IMG/VR virus record: IMGVR_UViG_3300025885_000002
Location: 4,801 to 68,800 of that record
Direction: 5' to 3' (one strand)
From: a virus
Lineage: Duplodnaviria > Caudoviricetes
DNA length: 64,000 nt
Shown one piece after another: positions 13,200 through 32,636 of the stretch (within the stretch, counting starts at the first letter, position 1; every line of letters begins with the position of its first letter). The translations under genes were made by a program, and so were the position numbers. The notes below the pieces were generated by a model. It was not told the origin of the DNA and ran no database searches. It worked only from the letters and a program-made list of their open reading frames with translations.

Positions 13200-13276
13200 T
13201 GGGCGCAGCGACGGGAGTCGAACCCGCTATCCCTTGGTTATGAGCCAAGGATGATTTTCCGTTTCACTCCGCTGCA
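13200..13276 (-). tRNA. tRNA with CAT anticodon (Met/fMet/Ile2 unresolved), CCA encoded
   Basis: Hand-folded cloverleaf: acceptor TGCAGCG/CGCTGCG, D stem GTGA/TCAT, anticodon stem CTTGG/CCAAG with loop CTCATAA, T arm GCGGG-TTCGACT-CCCGT, 3' CCCA. Confidence 0.85.
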
Positions 13277-17263: not shown

Positions 17264-17603
17264 ACAATTCCTCCTGCTGCGGCTCGAATTCGTCCGGGAT
17301 ATTCAAGCCCAGTACCCCGTCTGTTTTCGCTCGCACTTCGGAGTAGTGCCCGGGATCGAACGCACACTCGAGCGCCCAATGATTCTTTGGCCGGCGATCG
17401 AAGACTCTTACACTCGTCACCGGGTTACAGACCGGACAGCGTTCGGTCAGCACCACGAATAGGCCGTCTTTGTGCTCGCTCACCAGGTCCTTCAACTCAG
17501 GCTTCATTCCGCGAGGGCCCATCACTCGCCCGTCTTTTACTCGAAGCTCCACGCCGTGACGCTGCAGATGAGCCAGGATCGAATGCATCTCGGTTGTTTC
17601 CAT
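17253..17603 (-). CDS. Primase-associated small protein (TubC N-terminal docking-like plus CxxC)
   Basis: ILAHLQRHGVELRVKDGRV...ELKDLVSEHKDGL pattern; TGATG coupling to the primase-helicase. Confidence 0.6.
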   Translation of the reverse strand: METTEMHSILAHLQRHGVELRVKDGRVMGPRGMKPELKDLVSEHKDGLFVVLTERCPVCNPVTSVRVFDRRPKNHWALECAFDPGHYSEVRAKTDGVLGLNIPDEFEPQQEELYEQ

Positions 17604-19432
17604 CAAGCCTCCTCGTAATCGTCGGCGCTGGCTTCTCGAACCAGCGGGAATGCATAAGAGCCAGCCTCGGCCAGGTATTGCTGCGACTCTCGATCGAACC
17701 AGAGAGACGCGCTCCCTTCCCACTCTCCCTCACGGGTCTTGTCGCACTTGAACAGAGCGTCGGGTTGTTCGAAAAGCTTGAAATGCGGAGTCTCGCCGGC
17801 GTGTTGCGCACGCTCCATCGCGGCCTCTTTCTGCTTGTTCCGCCACACGACATACACGTTGTGTCCGAGGTCGGTGATCGATGCCGAGCCCCTCACGTCG
17901 AGGCGTCCGCCGGCTTCGTTGTCGTTCTGCTTTTTGCGGCTGTGAGCAACCAGATGAACTCCTACCGCGTGAGTGGTAGCGTACTCCGCGAGTTGATCGA
18001 CGAACTCTTTCTGGGCGTTGTAGTCCTCTTCGGGAATCCCGCAGCGCAACAGGCTGTCGACGACAAACTGACTGACCCCGTAGCGGCGCCGCGCGTAGTC
18101 GAACACCTGAAGCAATCGGCTGGTCTTTGCGCTGCCGACCAGATCGAAAATCCAGATCTTCCCGTCGTACCAGCGGTGAGTCGTTCTGATCAGCGCAACG
18201 TCTGGCGTACGCTTTCCAGTTGCCTGCCTGGTCGCGCGCTTGAGCAGGATCGCGGGTTTGATTTCCAGTGAGGCGATGAGACAGCGCTCACCTTGGGCCG
18301 CTCCCCAGAGCAGAACTTGGTTCAGGAGCGTGGTCTTTCCGTGATCGCTGAATCCGGTCCAGATGCTCAGTTCCGCGCGCCTGAACCGAATCAGCTCATC
18401 GAGCTTTTGCCAGGGAGACTTGAACCCGATCGGTTCGTTGTTGGGCGGGTAGAACTGCTCGATCACCTCTTCGACGTAGGAACTTGCACGCCGCAGTTCC
18501 TCCGGATCGGTGGTCTCCGCGGCTTCTAGGAAACCGCGCATCTGCTCCTCAGTGTAGCCCTTGGTCCGGCATTCGTTGGCGTCTTTGTGCGGTAGTTTCA
18601 CGACGTGACAGCGATGCCGACCGAGTCGTTCAACCAGCTCAGGAACCGCCTTCTGTCCGTGCTCGTCCATATCCAGGCTGATATAAATCGCTTCGAAGCG
18701 TTCGAGATGATCGAACTCGTTTTCGATCCACGTATGACCCTTGGCACCGTTCGGAAGCGACATCGCCGCAATCCCGCAAGAGTGCCAGGACATCGCATCG
18801 ATCTCGCCTTCGGTTAGAACAAAACTGCGATCGTTGTCCCCGATGGATTGCCAGCCCCACAGAAGCATTTCGCAGCCCGGTTCAAAGCGCGAAGCTTTCT
18901 TGGTGCCGTCCTCGTTCCGAGCGATCGGAGAGTACTTCACGTTGAGCAATTCGCCGCTGCGCTTAAAGGGGAAAACCATCACCGGTCCGCTTGCGTCGGA
19001 GGTCTCGCCCACCTGGTAGGCCGCAATCGTATCCGGCTCGATCCATCGATGCTCGATCAGGTACTCCTTGACGCTCGTAGGCTTTCGCACTTTGGGCTTT
19101 TCCGGCCTCCGGTACGACTTAGCCTTTGACCCGTGAAACGTCGGAGTTGCGGCGATGCCCAGGTAGTCTTTGATCTGGCCCAGGGCGCTGACGAAATCCA
19201 CTCCGCGCTTGATCGTCCAGAGCTCGATGAGGTCCCCGTGTTGACCCGTAGCGTAGTCAGCCCAGCGACCGGCCTTCTCGCCGCTGATGTGAATCGCGAG
19301 GCTCTGCCCCTTATCTCCCTCGACGTTGCCGGCCTTCCAGTAGCCGCCGACTTTCTTGCCCTCGGGTAGGAGCATTCGAGAGATTTCCTCAGCTCGCCAC
19401 GACATAGCCCTGCTGATTTCCCCAGCGTCCAT
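17603..19432 (-). CDS. T7 gp4 / Twinkle-like primase-helicase
   Basis: Toprim motifs LTEGEIDAMS and ISLDMDEHG; Walker A TGFSDHGKTT; FVVDSL; LVAHSRK; DVRGSASI. Confidence 0.92.
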   Translation of the reverse strand: MDAGEISRAMSWRAEEISRMLLPEGKKVGGYWKAGNVEGDKGQSLAIHISGEKAGRWADYATGQHGDLIELWTIKRGVDFVSALGQIKDYLGIAATPTFHGSKAKSYRRPEKPKVRKPTSVKEYLIEHRWIEPDTIAAYQVGETSDASGPVMVFPFKRSGELLNVKYSPIARNEDGTKKASRFEPGCEMLLWGWQSIGDNDRSFVLTEGEIDAMSWHSCGIAAMSLPNGAKGHTWIENEFDHLERFEAIYISLDMDEHGQKAVPELVERLGRHRCHVVKLPHKDANECRTKGYTEEQMRGFLEAAETTDPEELRRASSYVEEVIEQFYPPNNEPIGFKSPWQKLDELIRFRRAELSIWTGFSDHGKTTLLNQVLLWGAAQGERCLIASLEIKPAILLKRATRQATGKRTPDVALIRTTHRWYDGKIWIFDLVGSAKTSRLLQVFDYARRRYGVSQFVVDSLLRCGIPEEDYNAQKEFVDQLAEYATTHAVGVHLVAHSRKKQNDNEAGGRLDVRGSASITDLGHNVYVVWRNKQKEAAMERAQHAGETPHFKLFEQPDALFKCDKTREGEWEGSASLWFDRESQQYLAEAGSYAFPLVREASADDYEEA

Positions 19433-20094
19433 CAGATCGCTCCCTTGAACTGCGGCAGGTCTCGCCAGTCCTGCACGCCGTCGGTTTCATTCGACTGGAG
19501 GAAGCTTTCGATTTGGCTATCCTGCTCCCCGCTGCGATGGATCGTCACGGCAAAAGCTTCGTGGTTTCTGACCCGTGGCTGGGTCCGTGCGAAGGCGAGG
19601 CATTCTTCGTAGGAAAACTTCGAAAAACCAGCGAGCGCAGCGCCGCTGCTGCTACTGCTATTTTCTTTCAGTAAACTACCTACTTCAGATACTAATACTT
19701 TATCTAGCTTCTGGGGTAGCATGCCCGGGGCACTGCTTGGAGCATTGCTTGGCGTGTGCCCGTGCCGTGCTTGTGCTGCCGTCCTTGCCCGGTCAGAGCG
19801 CTTCTGATGGGCCTTGACTTGATCCTCGTATATCTCCGCAAGTCGTTTATTTCTTAAGTATCGCTGGCCCTTGATCGTAACCGTCGTGAATTTCTCCCGA
19901 ACTTGCGACGTCATCGGTCCGCGACACACATTTCGGAGATATTTTTTGTCATCTTTTATTGCTTGAAAATCACCAGATTTCCATTGGGCGATCAATGCTT
20001 GGAGATATGCTCCAAGCTCTCCTTGGAGCATGCCCACAGTACCCCCCAACCAGTCGTCGACGAAGAATGGAAACCAGGTCAGATCGTTGGCCAT
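19432..20094 (-). CDS. DUF1376 / YdaU-family replication initiator
   Basis: WFPFFVDDWLGGT..L...ELGAY..L...W signature; low-complexity linker and small C-terminal domain. Confidence 0.8.
   Translation of the reverse strand: MANDLTWFPFFVDDWLGGTVGMLQGELGAYLQALIAQWKSGDFQAIKDDKKYLRNVCRGPMTSQVREKFTTVTIKGQRYLRNKRLAEIYEDQVKAHQKRSDRARTAAQARHGHTPSNAPSSAPGMLPQKLDKVLVSEVGSLLKENSSSSSGAALAGFSKFSYEECLAFARTQPRVRNHEAFAVTIHRSGEQDSQIESFLQSNETDGVQDWRDLPQFKGAI
19654..19774. other. Putative replication origin inside the initiator gene
   Basis: Iteron-like GCACTGCTTGG (19730), GCATTGCTTGG (19742) and GCCGTGCTTGT (19764) beside an AT-rich tract 19654-19710; same layout as lambda ori within O. Confidence 0.55.
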
Positions 20095-20705
20095 CAGTCG
20101 CCTCCTTTCGCGGAAAGGGCAGGCTCAGGACTGAGCATCTCTGCGCCCCGCGGAAATCGATAGGAGGCGGCCTCCGATAATGCAGCGCCCACCCGGCCGT
20201 AGGTATCCCCGCTGGGCGGCTTCTCACTTGGACAATCATCCGGACAGCCAGCGAGAGGACCATACCCACCGTCGCTGAAATACCAGATCCCGGTCGGGCA
20301 TTTACGGCAGTCACCAATCAGCACCGGTGAGATATCCGGCTGCATATAAGGGAACCAAATGCGGTAGGAGCTGAAGCCTGGATTGCCCTGAAAGATGAGC
20401 GCTCGAGCGCCTGACAAATCCTGCAGCCCTCGTATTAGCCGGAAAGCCTCCGGCGTCGGCGGAGGATCAGTTGCGGGCCGAGGCTTGATTTCGATGAAGT
20501 GACCCCACTCTGGAATCCAGAAATCCGGCAGATACCACGTTCCGTTGATATCATACCCCTCGCACTCGTACTGATAGGCCACGCCGAGCGAGTGAAAAAA
20601 CACTGCCCAGCGGGCCTCAGTGGTCGAGCGAAAGAGGATCCCGTTGTAGGACCGCGGGATCGGAGGAATGTCGTTTCGAGCGTTTGATTTTATCGGCGCC
20701 GGCAT
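20094..20705 (-). CDS. PD-(D/E)XK family nuclease
   Basis: FRSTTEARWAVFF...YLPDFW...FIEIKP. Confidence 0.8.
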   Translation of the reverse strand: MPAPIKSNARNDIPPIPRSYNGILFRSTTEARWAVFFHSLGVAYQYECEGYDINGTWYLPDFWIPEWGHFIEIKPRPATDPPPTPEAFRLIRGLQDLSGARALIFQGNPGFSSYRIWFPYMQPDISPVLIGDCRKCPTGIWYFSDGGYGPLAGCPDDCPSEKPPSGDTYGRVGAALSEAASYRFPRGAEMLSPEPALSAKGGD

Positions 20706-20860
20706 AGAAAAGGACCCCCCACCGTGAATCTCCCCTGTGTGCGCAACTGTCTAGGAAGCGCTTCGGGTGGAGACCCACGAATGGAGGGTCCTTCACTATC
20801 GGTATTCGATTGTTCGCACACAGGGCTTTCAGTGAAAGACCCCAAGACGCTTCCTAGACA
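20706..20860 (-). ncRNA. Structured 5' leader with three crossing helices (candidate cis-regulatory RNA)
   Basis: 13-bp and 11-bp perfect helices plus a 17-bp helix with G-U pairs; begins about 6 nt after a perfect -10. Confidence 0.65.
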
Positions 20861-20866
20861 TCGCGG

Positions 20867-20896
20867 ATTATACCCCACCCCTGCCGCTTGCTTCAA
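20867..20896 (-). promoter_or_regulatory. Sigma70-type promoter for the nuclease/replication operon
   Basis: TTGAAG (20896-20891)-18 nt-TATAAT (20872-20867). Confidence 0.7.
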
Positions 20897-20911
20897 GACC
20901 CACCCCTTTCT

Positions 20912-21415
20912 CTACTCGTCGTCTTCTCCCTCGCCTCCCTCTTCGGCCGCCGCGGTTGGCTGAGTCAATTCGGGCTCATCCTTGCGCTCGCGAGTCTTCA
21001 CGACCGGATTGTTGTCGATGAAGCACTCCATCACCTTCCCGTCGGGGCCGGGGTAGACGAAGCTGTCGAGCCCCACGGAGTTCATATAGGCATCGAGCAT
21101 TTTCTTCTTCTCGGTTTCCTTGTTGGACATCTCGACGCGCTTGTACTTCGCCTTGTCGTATTGCTGCGCGTGATAGGTCAACTCAGCAAGCTGCTTCGAC
21201 GTCAGCTTTGGTGGTGCCGGCAGTTCCATACCTGGAAGCCGCTGCGCTGCGAGATCGCCGCCTTCGGTCGACTCGTCATTCGGCGGACCCTGTTCAACCT
21301 GCCTTCCGTCCTTCGGGACGAGCCGGGGCTTTGATCGGCCCTCTTGCGCGGCCAATTCATCCGCGGACATCTCAAACTCGTCGTCGGAATCCTTCTCTTT
21401 TGCTGCTTTGCTCAT
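20912..21415 (-). CDS. Acidic hypothetical protein
   Basis: 167 aa, AGGAG SD, acidic termini. Confidence 0.75.
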   Translation of the reverse strand: MSKAAKEKDSDDEFEMSADELAAQEGRSKPRLVPKDGRQVEQGPPNDESTEGGDLAAQRLPGMELPAPPKLTSKQLAELTYHAQQYDKAKYKRVEMSNKETEKKKMLDAYMNSVGLDSFVYPGPDGKVMECFIDNNPVVKTRERKDEPELTQPTAAAEEGGEGEDDE

Positions 21416-31472: not shown

Positions 31473-32449
31473 TGTCTCCTTTTTCCAGCTTTCGCTTTGG
31501 CCTTCCTGAGCACTCGGTGCGTCGGCTGACTGACCAGTTCCGCGTAGAGTTCAGGCGCCTTATACTGCAAGATGTCGAGGTCAATCTGTCGCGCTCCGTT
31601 CTGCGACAGGTATGTAATGGTTTCGCCGGAAGGCAAGCGGCCGGCCTCGGCGTCTCCGAGCATCGCGAGCACTGCCTGCTTTCGCTCATCCACGGTCGAT
31701 GTCCAATGCTTCGCCTCTCGCTTTGCGGCCTCGAGATCCGCCCAGGCTTCTCCCGCCTCATCTCCCAGGCTGATGATCGAATTTGGTTCGCGCCTGATGC
31801 TCTTCAGCGTCTCAAGGTGAGGAGTCACATCCTCGGGCATCACATCTCTGCGAACGTGGTCGAGGAAGTCGAAGCCCGCATACCGCAGCTCCTCAATCAG
31901 AGTGTCATCACGCTCAACGCGGAAGGTTTTGAAGACGAACCGACCGAAACTAGCGAGCCACACAGGAACAATTCCGTAGCGGCAGCGGGGGCCACAGTGG
32001 AGGATCTCCCACTGAACCTGCACAACGACGTGAAGGGGAACCTCGGTATACGCGCTGGAAGAGGGGTCGTTAGAAGTCTTCGCCTCGACGGGTGCCTCGA
32101 TAACGTCGAGGCAGCGCTCGAATCCTTCTTCGTCCGGTTCGCAAACCTCCGTCAAGATCGCGGCGTCCAGGTTCGCGCAGAAGCCACGTCCGTCTTCGCC
32201 GACCTCACTGAAGAGCTGGATGTCGCGTACAAGCTGGACCTCGTTCTCACGCTCGTACATATCCAGCACGTAGCCCTCGAGCGCGATGCCTCGATTGGCG
32301 TCCGTGCTGGTCCCGTTTCCATCCAGCCGCTGAGTAGCATAGAGAAACGCATCGCTGATGTTCTCACGAGGGTGAACTCCGATGATCTTACTGATCATCG
32401 AACTCCCCACGTAGAGATGATGCGTTTGTCTTTGAGCCTCAGTCAGCAT
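31469..32449 (-). CDS. YqaJ / lambda-exonuclease-like recombination exonuclease
   Basis: VGSSMI..I.G, RG.ALE, ANLDA, VEAKT, QVQWE; paired with RecT. Confidence 0.85.
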   Translation of the reverse strand: MLTEAQRQTHHLYVGSSMISKIIGVHPRENISDAFLYATQRLDGNGTSTDANRGIALEGYVLDMYERENEVQLVRDIQLFSEVGEDGRGFCANLDAAILTEVCEPDEEGFERCLDVIEAPVEAKTSNDPSSSAYTEVPLHVVVQVQWEILHCGPRCRYGIVPVWLASFGRFVFKTFRVERDDTLIEELRYAGFDFLDHVRRDVMPEDVTPHLETLKSIRREPNSIISLGDEAGEAWADLEAAKREAKHWTSTVDERKQAVLAMLGDAEAGRLPSGETITYLSQNGARQIDLDILQYKAPELYAELVSQPTHRVLRKAKAKAGKRRQ

Positions 32450-32636
32450 TTAAGAAATCCCTCTCCCACCGCTCCATCACTTCGTCGTTCACTTCCTGAA
32501 CCGCCTGATAAGCCCGCCGTCCAGCCTCCCAGGCCTCGTAGTAGGCCGCTGTCTCCCAATCAATCTCGCGTCTGTCGCGCGGGTCAGGCTCGCGCTCATC
32601 GGGTCGCGGCCGGGATTCGATCCAACTCAGCGGCAT
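32439..32636 (-). CDS. Hypothetical protein
   Basis: 65 aa, coupled. Confidence 0.55.
   Translation of the reverse strand: MPLSWIESRPRPDEREPDPRDRREIDWETAAYYEAWEAGRRAYQAVQEVNDEVMERWERDFLNAD

What the first reader, a model, noticed from the sequence alone, without database searches (positions are those of the whole stretch)
20706..20896. Promoter-proximal 155-nt leader with three mutually crossing long helices (ABCABC three-knot) gating the replication operon
Seen on the minus strand, starting about 6 nt after TTGAAG-18-TATAAT. Helix B: 20860-20848 pairs with 20760-20748 (13 bp perfect). Helix A: 20825-20815 pairs with 20743-20733 (11 bp perfect). Helix C: 20793-20776 pairs with 20726-20710 (17 bp, two G-U pairs, one bulge; the G-U pairs work only on the sense strand). 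The strand order is B1-A1-C1-B2-A2-C2, so all three cross. C2 contains the G-rich SD region 5 nt before the ATG of the nuclease/initiator/primase-helicase operon and is followed by UUUU. C1 can alternatively pair with upstream GGGGUCUU. Inference: either a rare three-knot ncRNA, or a cotranscriptional hand-off switch (helices of a full turn or more would need threading to coexist) that times replication-gene expression. It could also be an RNA partner of the adjacent PD-(D/E)XK nuclease.
Basis: partly seen in the sequence, partly recalled or inferred. Interest (0 to 1): 0.8.

Follow-up and report, generated by a model that had tools for sequence, protein, structure and literature searches.

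The report
Multi-helix leader RNA before replication genes
The 155 untranslated bases between a promoter and the DNA-replication genes of an uncultured temperate soil phage can form five unusually strong, interlocking RNA helices; they most likely act as a fold-as-it-is-made switch that hides or exposes the ribosome-binding site, not as a fixed knot, and nothing about its function has been tested.

Summary
On the minus strand a TTGAAG-18-TATAAT promoter is followed by helices B (13-14 bp), A (11 bp) and C (15 bp, plus a 12-bp extension C'). Arm order is B1-A1-C1-B2-A2-C2. A fourth helix, D (14 bp), pairs C1 with upstream GGGGUCUUUCACUG.

Shuffled leaders hold 0.012 helices this strong; the real leader holds four. 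C, C' and D need G-U pairs and exist only on the sense strand, so this is an RNA feature. It matches no Rfam family.

Two ordinary nested folds use four of the five helices. A 5' rod (B+D) is the best fold while the RNA is still being made. The long C/C' hairpin buries the Shine-Dalgarno run and wins once C2 is made. Only A crosses everything.

Two relatives (L008, L111) show similar logic with unrelated sequences before their replication genes.

There is no covariation: all copies are identical, and one 97.6% variant has no compensatory change. There are no RNA data.

I favour a co-transcriptional translation or termination switch. A coexisting pseudotrefoil is not excluded.

Earlier notes of this scan describe the same design on other phage DNA.

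The parts
20867..20896 (-). Sigma-70-like promoter: TTGAAG (20896-20891), 18-nt spacer, TATAAT (20872-20867)
   Evidence: It is the only such match in the 64-kb window and scores 10/12 against consensus. It is a consensus match only; no transcript data exist.
20829..20861 (-). Predicted 5' end near A20861. A 10-codon mini-ORF (MSRKRLGVFH, stop UGA at 20831-20829) starts on that same base and covers B1 and D1.
   Evidence: Read from the sequence. The start site is inferred from the distance to the -10 box. An open frame of this length is not significant. The 97.6% variant changes its stop codon.
20847..20860 (-). B1, the 5' arm of helix B, at the very 5' end of the predicted transcript
   Evidence: 13 perfect pairs plus one G-U; -24.0 kcal/mol proxy energy.
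20830..20843 (-). D1 (GGGGUCUUUCACUG), an upstream partner for C1 that would free the SD
   Evidence: (I6). 14 bp with 3 G-U, -21.6 kcal/mol. Weak on the antisense strand.
20815..20825 (-). A1, the 5' arm of helix A. It lies in the apical loop of the D hairpin.
   Evidence: 11/11 Watson-Crick, -22.1 kcal/mol.
20769..20798 (-). C1 plus C'1, the 5' arm of the long hairpin. It holds the anti-SD-like CCCUCC. Bases 20798-20785 also serve as the 3' arm of D.
20748..20761 (-). B2, the 3' arm of helix B, in the apical part of the C/C' hairpin
20733..20743 (-). A2, the 3' arm of helix A. It lies 4 nt after B2 and directly abuts C'2.
20709..20733 (-). C'2 plus C2, the 3' arm of the long hairpin. It holds the G-run Shine-Dalgarno (20723-20715).
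   Evidence: Opening 20724-20699 costs 23.1 kcal/mol at equilibrium and 13.7 with the B+D rod enforced.
20703..20713 (-). U-rich tail UUUUCUAU followed by the AUG (20705-20703) of the first gene
   Evidence: The simple terminator scan called nothing here, so terminator function is only a possibility.
20094..20705 (-). First gene of the operon: a 203-aa PD-(D/E)XK-like nuclease. It is followed by a DUF1376 protein (19432-20094) and a primase-helicase (17603-19432).
   Evidence: The same start codon was called on the metagenome copies.

Best explanation
This is a cis-acting, structured 5' leader of the replication-operon mRNA. It works through folds that exclude each other and form in sequence.

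1. As the RNA is made, D1 captures C1, which is the anti-SD strand.
2. The transcript's 5' end (B1) then clamps onto B2. This gives a B+D rod and leaves the ribosome-binding site comparatively open.
3. The thermodynamically better fold is the long C/C' hairpin. It buries the G-run SD against CCCUCC and ends in a U-rich tail just before the AUG.
4. The first gene would then be translated mainly from young or actively remodelled transcripts. RNA polymerase might also read through the hairpin only in that state.

Helix A crosses both folds. I read it as an auxiliary lock or hand-off contact between the 5' part and the top of the hairpin.

Shown: the helices, their statistics, their strand bias and the in-silico folding order. 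Inferred: transcription from this promoter, the switch itself and its output.
For: - Five strong helices lie in 155 nt, far beyond shuffles.
- C, C' and D are lost on the antisense strand. Fold z-scores are -3.9 to -4.5 on the sense strand against -2.3 to -2.8 on the antisense strand.
- This stretch is one of the two most structured 170-nt windows on its strand.
- D and C compete for the same bases, which is the hallmark of a switch.
- B+D is a plain nested fold (-66.7 kcal/mol). It is the MFE of every prefix ending between 20750 and 20730. The C hairpin takes over only once C2 exists (-76).
- RBS opening costs 23.1 kcal/mol at equilibrium and 13.7 in the rod state.
- Relative L008 (primase-helicase 71% identical) has a leader of unrelated sequence in the same position. 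Two nested perfect 9-bp helices enclose the anti-SD arm of a 28-nt hairpin that holds the SD and is followed by UUUUGCUUU. It shows the same prefix behaviour and the same 23.2 against 10.4 kcal/mol opening costs.
- L111 has two crossing 15-bp helices in its non-coding gap. The 5' end pairs with the loop of a hairpin that is followed by a U-tract.
- Gaps before the replication module are also highly structured in L093 and L176, while most control gaps are not.
- The MS2 maturation-gene leader is an experimentally proven precedent for this logic (PMC4615214).
Against: - There is no covariation. Five metagenome copies are identical in the leader.
- The one 97.6% variant has four leader changes, all within 20802-20831. 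They break one terminal pair each of A and D, and none is compensated.
- L008 and L111 are positional analogues, not demonstrable homologues. The flanking genes differ and no sequence similarity was found.
- Across 232 family loci, strong crossing helices are no more frequent on the sense strand than on the antisense strand (58 against 79).
- B and A share no bases with C/C'. Their exclusion rests on my topological and steric reasoning, not on a computation.
- The rod state still costs 13.7 kcal/mol to open at the RBS.
- Helix A has no clear role in the model.
- The 39 kcal/mol refolding barrier is inflated, because the method forbids pseudoknotted intermediates.
Confidence: 0.5

Rival explanations
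1. A fixed complex pseudoknot, the ABCABC pseudotrefoil. B, A and C/C' coexist in one compact fold that serves as a recognition or blocking structure, for example for a protein, a nuclease or RNA polymerase.
For: - The four 3' arms tile 20761-20709 with at most one shared base, so nothing in the sequence forbids coexistence.
- The duplex energies of B, A and C sum to about -76 kcal/mol before loop terms, comparable with the nested MFE.
- A2 abuts C'2 with no linker, which would allow coaxial stacking.
- The pattern does occur in known RNAs (51 in RNA STRAND; PMC3390330).
Against: - By my own estimate the helices are 1 to 2.5 turns long. Forming C around a B-closed ring would need a kilobase-long 3' mRNA to be threaded through.
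- In a fully stacked model the 7-nt and 20-nt linkers are too short or fully stretched (my geometry, not computed).
- D competes with C for C1, which a static fold does not need.
- In L008 the two 5' helices are nested, not crossing, so the triple crossing is not the conserved feature.
Confidence: 0.12
2. An RNA processing and stability element. The roughly 95-nt C/C' hairpin is an RNase III-type site whose cleavage frees the SD, and pairing of the 5' end (B) protects the transcript. This would resemble the lambda N-leader and T7 early mRNA processing (own knowledge). It is not exclusive with the best explanation.
For: - The hairpin is long, imperfect and specific to the sense strand, and it buries the RBS at 23 kcal/mol.
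- Similar long hairpins end at the start of the first replication-module gene in L008 and L176.
- The 5' end is fully paired in helix B.
Against: - The host and its RNases are unknown, and there are no cleavage data.
- It does not explain D, or why the loop must be complementary to two separate 5' segments.
Confidence: 0.13
3. A DNA-level element: operator sites, iterons or a replication origin made of inverted repeats and GGGTCYT repeats beside the replication genes.
For: - B and A are perfect Watson-Crick repeats and so are equally strong on both strands.
- Four of the window's 15 GGGTCYT sites lie within 20711-20901, and one overlaps the -35 box.
- The position next to the initiator and primase genes is typical of origins (own knowledge).
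Against: - C, C' and D depend on G-U pairs and vanish on the other strand.
- There is no AT-rich block and no GC-skew turn here.
- Three of the four GGGTCYT copies are simply D1, C1 and C2, the RNA pairing partners.
- B1 is not itself a palindrome, as dimer operators usually are.
- Contigs show no inversion joints.
Confidence: 0.08
4. An ordinary SD-masking hairpin plus coincidental extra repeats. Only C/C' matters, and A and B have no function.
For: - A scan of about 250,000 windows would be expected to find some 13+11 bp coincidences (my arithmetic).
- Repeats of 10 bp or more are at chance level genome-wide.
- There is no covariation.
Against: - The 13-bp and 11-bp repeats never occurred together in 20,000 shuffles.
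- They fall exactly between the promoter and the AUG and target the hairpin's loop.
- L008 and L111 independently pair 5' segments with the same part of their hairpins.
Confidence: 0.12

Closest known systems
[quoted passage not shown]
   Same: An upstream complementary sequence pairs with the SD in the final fold. An earlier-forming metastable hairpin holds that sequence for a while, so only young RNA is translated. Here C1 plays the upstream sequence, D1:C1 the metastable hairpin and C1:C2 the inhibitory pairing.
   Different: There is no sequence or family relationship (Rfam gave no match). This is a DNA phage mRNA made from a promoter, not a replicating RNA genome. It has two extra long helices (B, A) aimed at the hairpin loop. 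The MS2 kinetics are proven by experiment; here they are only computed.
Terminator/antiterminator attenuators and riboswitch expression platforms (trp leader type; own knowledge and PMC4615214)
   Same: An upstream strand (D1) and a downstream strand (C2) compete for one shared strand (C1). The downstream hairpin is followed by a U-rich tail and contains the SD.
   Different: No sensing element has been identified. The leader peptide is only a 10-codon frame of no statistical weight. The hairpin is far longer than usual terminators, and the simple scan did not call it a terminator.
IncI1 (ColIb-P9 repY/repZ) and IncB plasmid replication-gene leaders (own knowledge, not checked in a paper here)
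   Same: Expression of a replication gene is controlled by a long-range pseudoknot between an upstream hairpin loop and bases beside the RBS, coupled to a short leader frame.
   Different: Those pseudoknots are short (6-8 bp), activate translation and are opposed by an antisense RNA. Here the crossing helices are 11-15 bp and no antisense RNA is evident.
Pseudotrefoil (ABCABC) pseudoknot class, genus 1 (PMC3390330)
   Same: The arm order B1-A1-C1-B2-A2-C2 is exactly this chord pattern.
   Different: Catalogued examples average 74 nt and are solved or curated structures. Here the helices are much longer and their coexistence is untested.
Lambda N-leader and T7 early-mRNA RNase III sites (own knowledge)
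   Same: A long imperfect hairpin lies in an early phage leader and includes or masks the RBS of the next gene.
   Different: No cleavage data exist, the host is unknown, and those sites lack partners for the 5' end in their loops.

Membership tests
Any Rfam 15 family (riboswitches, ribozymes including HDV-like and twister, phage leaders) | Covariance-model match at or near the gathering score | tested here: not met
   on the window and on L008. There was nothing on the sense strand. The only hits were two chance-level matches on the other strand or outside the leader.
MS2-type kinetic translational control | The SD is paired to an upstream complementary sequence in the equilibrium fold | tested here: met
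   The MFE and centroid folds pair the G-run with CCCUCC. Opening the RBS costs 23.1 kcal/mol.
MS2-type kinetic translational control | An earlier-made metastable helix sequesters that upstream sequence | tested here: met
   D1:C1 is the MFE of prefixes from 20780 onwards, and B+D of prefixes 20750-20730. This is in silico only.
MS2-type kinetic translational control | Translation comes only from nascent, non-equilibrated RNA | not testable with these tools
   This needs translation assays with delayed folding or with mutants.
Intrinsic terminator / attenuator | A GC-rich stem immediately followed by a U-tract | tested here: inconclusive
   The stem base GGACCCUCC/GGUGGGGGGUCC is followed by UUUUCUAU. 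The consensus scan found no terminator, because the loop is long and branched.
Intrinsic terminator / attenuator | The antiterminator shares bases with the terminator's 5' arm | tested here: met
   D and C both use 20794-20785.
Pseudotrefoil pseudoknot | Three helices, each crossing the other two | tested here: met
   The arm order was verified.
Pseudotrefoil pseudoknot | All three helices are present in one molecule at once | not testable with these tools
   No pseudoknot-capable folding or RNA 3D tool was on hand. My linker-length estimates suggest strain.
Conserved structured RNA family (any) | Base pairs are kept by compensatory changes in homologues | tested here: not met
   Only identical copies and one variant without compensatory changes were found. 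No homologous leader turned up in about 250 related loci or in pattern scans.

The most novel reading that the evidence does not exclude
The leader is one instance of a widespread, uncatalogued class of 'self-clamping' promoter-proximal phage leader RNAs. In this class the transcript's own 5' end, sometimes with a second 5' segment, base-pairs with the loop of a terminator or SD-sequestering hairpin in front of the replication genes. This builds a true interlocked fold, or a topological lock, that decides read-through and translation. The sequences differ from phage to phage but the logic is kept.
Probability: 0.25. Interest if true: 0.75.

Novelty: new variant of a known kind. Interest (0 to 1): 0.5.

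Why it matters
Replication genes of temperate phages must be switched on at the right moment. If this leader times or gates them purely through the order in which its helices form, it would extend the MS2-type folding-kinetics control to DNA phages.

Together with L008, L111 and the earlier scan notes, it would also point to a recurrent RNA design that sequence-based catalogues miss, because only the logic is conserved and not the sequence. If the three helices really coexist, it would be an unusually long-stemmed natural pseudotrefoil and would bear on the question of RNA threading.

As it stands, this is a well-supported structural observation with an untested function.

Tried and rejected
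Searches for relatives of the leader:
- blastn of the region against 50,697 phage records: no match.
- The 203-aa nuclease has no relative above about 50% identity.
- The closest primase-helicase relatives were fetched one by one. Only L008 carries a comparable leader. L009, L010 and L175 are too short. L091 and L092 have no strongly structured gap.
- Family scans of viral, metagenome and genome collections gave nothing closer than 48% identity.
- Exact-pattern scans for the B2-A2 block and for C1 found nothing. The 12 hits for the L008 block were chance matches.
- blastn and nhmmer of four leaders against all held loci: no homologues.

Expression and variation:
- Sequencing runs: no RNA holder is listed.
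- Laying four DNA runs gave one 97.6% variant and no inversion joints.

Ideas tested and dropped:
- Origin of replication: no GC-skew turn.
- Invertible segment flanked by B: all contigs have one orientation.
- HDV-like or group I ribozyme, considered because of the a-b-a'-b' order: no Rfam hit, and only 4 nt lie between B2 and A2.
- General enrichment of crossing helices upstream of this primase-helicase family: none, 58 sense against 79 antisense.

Limits of what was done:
- The findpath barrier of 39 kcal/mol is not usable, because pseudoknotted intermediates are forbidden by the method.
- No covariance model was built. With a single distinct sequence it could not add evidence.

Full report
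**Setting.** The window is part of a 68.8-kb IMG/VR virus record with direct terminal repeats. The phage is found in rhizosphere and soil metagenomes. The finding lies in a 206-nt gap on the minus strand. Upstream is a 167-aa gene (20912-21415). Downstream is an operon of a 203-aa PD-(D/E)XK-like nuclease (20094-20705), a DUF1376 'primosomal' protein and a 609-aa primase-helicase. Earlier notes on this genome place a lysis-lysogeny switch near 37-38 kb. I did not check that.

**Observation.**
- TTGAAG-18-TATAAT lies at 20896-20867. It is the only such match in the window.
- B pairs 20860-20848 with 20760-20748, 13/13, or 14 bp with one G-U.
- A pairs 20825-20815 with 20743-20733, 11/11.
- C pairs 20794-20780 with 20723-20709 (15 bp, 4 G-U). 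C' extends it, 20780-20769 with 20733-20722.
- A further helix, D, pairs 20843-20830 with 20798-20785 (14 bp, 3 G-U).
- The G-run SD (20723-20715) sits in C2, 9 nt before the AUG at 20705.

**Is it more than chance?**
- In 20,000 dinucleotide shuffles of the leader, a perfect repeat of 13 bp or more arose 3 times and one of 11 bp or more 43 times. The two never arose together.
- Uninterrupted helices at or below -21.5 kcal/mol number four, against 0.012 expected. Helices at or below -18 number five, against 0.064.
- The leader is one of the two most structured 170-nt windows on its strand.
- It is the only place in the genome where two crossing helices are both below -21 kcal/mol.
- On the other side, perfect repeats of 10 bp or more are at chance frequency genome-wide. 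A very large scan will also meet coincidences. The conclusion therefore rests on the combination of features, not on B and A alone.

**RNA or DNA?** On the antisense strand only B and A survive; C, C' and D collapse. The sense strand folds better in absolute energy and in z-score. There is no GC-skew turn here. The local cluster of GGGTCYT motifs (4 of the window's 15) is mostly D1, C1 and C2 themselves. This points to an RNA-level element on the transcribed strand.

**Knot or switch?** Two plain nested folds use four of the five helices.
- Fold I is a rod in which B encloses the D hairpin (-66.7 kcal/mol). Fold II is the long C/C' hairpin that buries the SD (-76.0).
- Folding growing prefixes gives D once C1 is made, then B+D for 3' ends between 20750 and 20730. 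The C hairpin appears only after C2 exists.
- Opening the ribosome-binding region costs 23.1 kcal/mol at equilibrium and 13.7 with the rod in place.
- D and C share bases, which is the classic mark of a switch. B and A share no bases with C/C'. The 3' arms B2, A2, C'2 and C2 tile 20761-20709 end to end.
- Coexistence as a pseudotrefoil is therefore not excluded by sequence. It is not excluded by simple energy sums either (B+A+C duplex energies total about -76 kcal/mol).
- My argument against coexistence is topological. The helices span 1 to 2.5 turns, and the 3' end carries kilobases of mRNA that would have to be threaded. The 7-nt and 20-nt linkers would also be strained. This is reasoning, not a computation.
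- Helix A crosses both nested folds, and its role is open.

**Relatives.**
- The five other metagenome copies are identical in the leader.
- A landfill contig at 97.6% identity has four leader changes: 20802, 20813, 20825 and 20831. All lie in or at the edge of the D apical loop. Two break terminal pairs of A and D, and none is compensated. There is therefore no covariation evidence either way.
- The nearest other phage, L008 (primase-helicase 71% identical), shares only the DUF1376 N-terminus and the primase-helicase.
- L008 nevertheless has a 209-nt gap before its replication module with two perfect 9-bp helices (2196-2204/2293-2301 and 2214-2222/2280-2288). These enclose the 5' arm of a 28-nt helix (2237-2264/2304-2331) whose 3' arm holds the SD and is followed by UUUUGCUUU.
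- L008 matches the window on sense-strand bias, prefix behaviour and RBS opening cost (23.2 against 10.4 kcal/mol). Its two 5' helices are nested rather than crossing. The shared feature is therefore '5' segments pair with the loop side of an SD-hiding hairpin', not the triple crossing.
- L111 (43%) has, in a non-coding gap 1 kb before its primase-helicase, two crossing 15-bp helices. Its 5' end pairs with the loop of a hairpin that is followed by a U-tract.
- L176 and L093 also have strongly structured gaps there.
- Across 232 family loci there is no general excess of crossing helices on the sense strand. The design is sporadic.

**Known things.**
- No Rfam family matches.
- The working logic is closest to the MS2 maturation-gene leader. 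There a metastable hairpin delays an SD-masking long-distance pairing (PMC4615214). It also resembles terminator/antiterminator attenuators.
- The ABCABC pattern is the 'pseudotrefoil', present in 51 RNA STRAND entries (PMC3390330).
- Earlier notes of this scan describe the same design on other phage DNA: leaders whose 5' end pairs with a terminator loop, or crossing helices before replication genes. I treated these as leads. They prompted the family scan that found L111 and the look at the 10-codon frame starting at the predicted start site.

**Verdict.** This is a real, statistically exceptional, sense-strand RNA structure in the leader of the replication operon. It is most likely a sequential-folding translation or attenuation switch (about 0.5). 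A coexisting pseudotrefoil, an RNase III or stability element, a DNA-level element and partial coincidence are the rivals. Function, transcript ends and structure in solution are all untested.

Noticed in passing
window 20480-20670 (minus strand, inside the nuclease gene): The first roughly 200 nt of the coding region are as structured as the leader: z = -4.8 on the sense strand against -2.5 on the antisense strand. This is the top-ranked 170-nt window on this strand. The first 392 nt of the transcript give z = -6.0.
   Followed up: partly
window 20898-20998: Contigs from other soil and landfill phages match only this stretch, which covers the acidic C-terminus of the 167-aa gene up to the -35 box. 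They then diverge exactly at 20898/20899. This is a mosaic joint at the promoter edge, and one such contig runs straight into another gene with no leader.
   Followed up: partly
L111 4076-4235: A non-coding gap before a replication module holds two crossing 15-bp helices (4079-4093/4177-4191 and 4155-4169/4207-4221). A T-run follows the second helix, and a weak promoter-like TTGCAA-17-TATGTT lies just upstream.
   Followed up: partly
L176 1-150: A hairpin of about 135 nt (z = -5.6) has a 3' arm that pairs with the start codon of the first gene of a replication module. The contig starts inside the leader, so any 5' partners are unseen.
   Followed up: no
window 20711-20901: Four of the window's 15 GGGTCYT sites cluster here, along with a GGGTCTC. 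They are spaced about 59-66 nt apart, and one overlaps the -35 box. Three are explained as RNA pairing partners. The one at the promoter is not.
   Followed up: partly
window 32251-32450: This stretch ranks among the most structured windows on both strands (z about -3.3 and -3.6). It could be a bidirectional terminator or a DNA palindrome.
   Followed up: no
window 13203-13276 (minus strand): A phage-encoded tRNA is the only Rfam match in the window.
   Followed up: no
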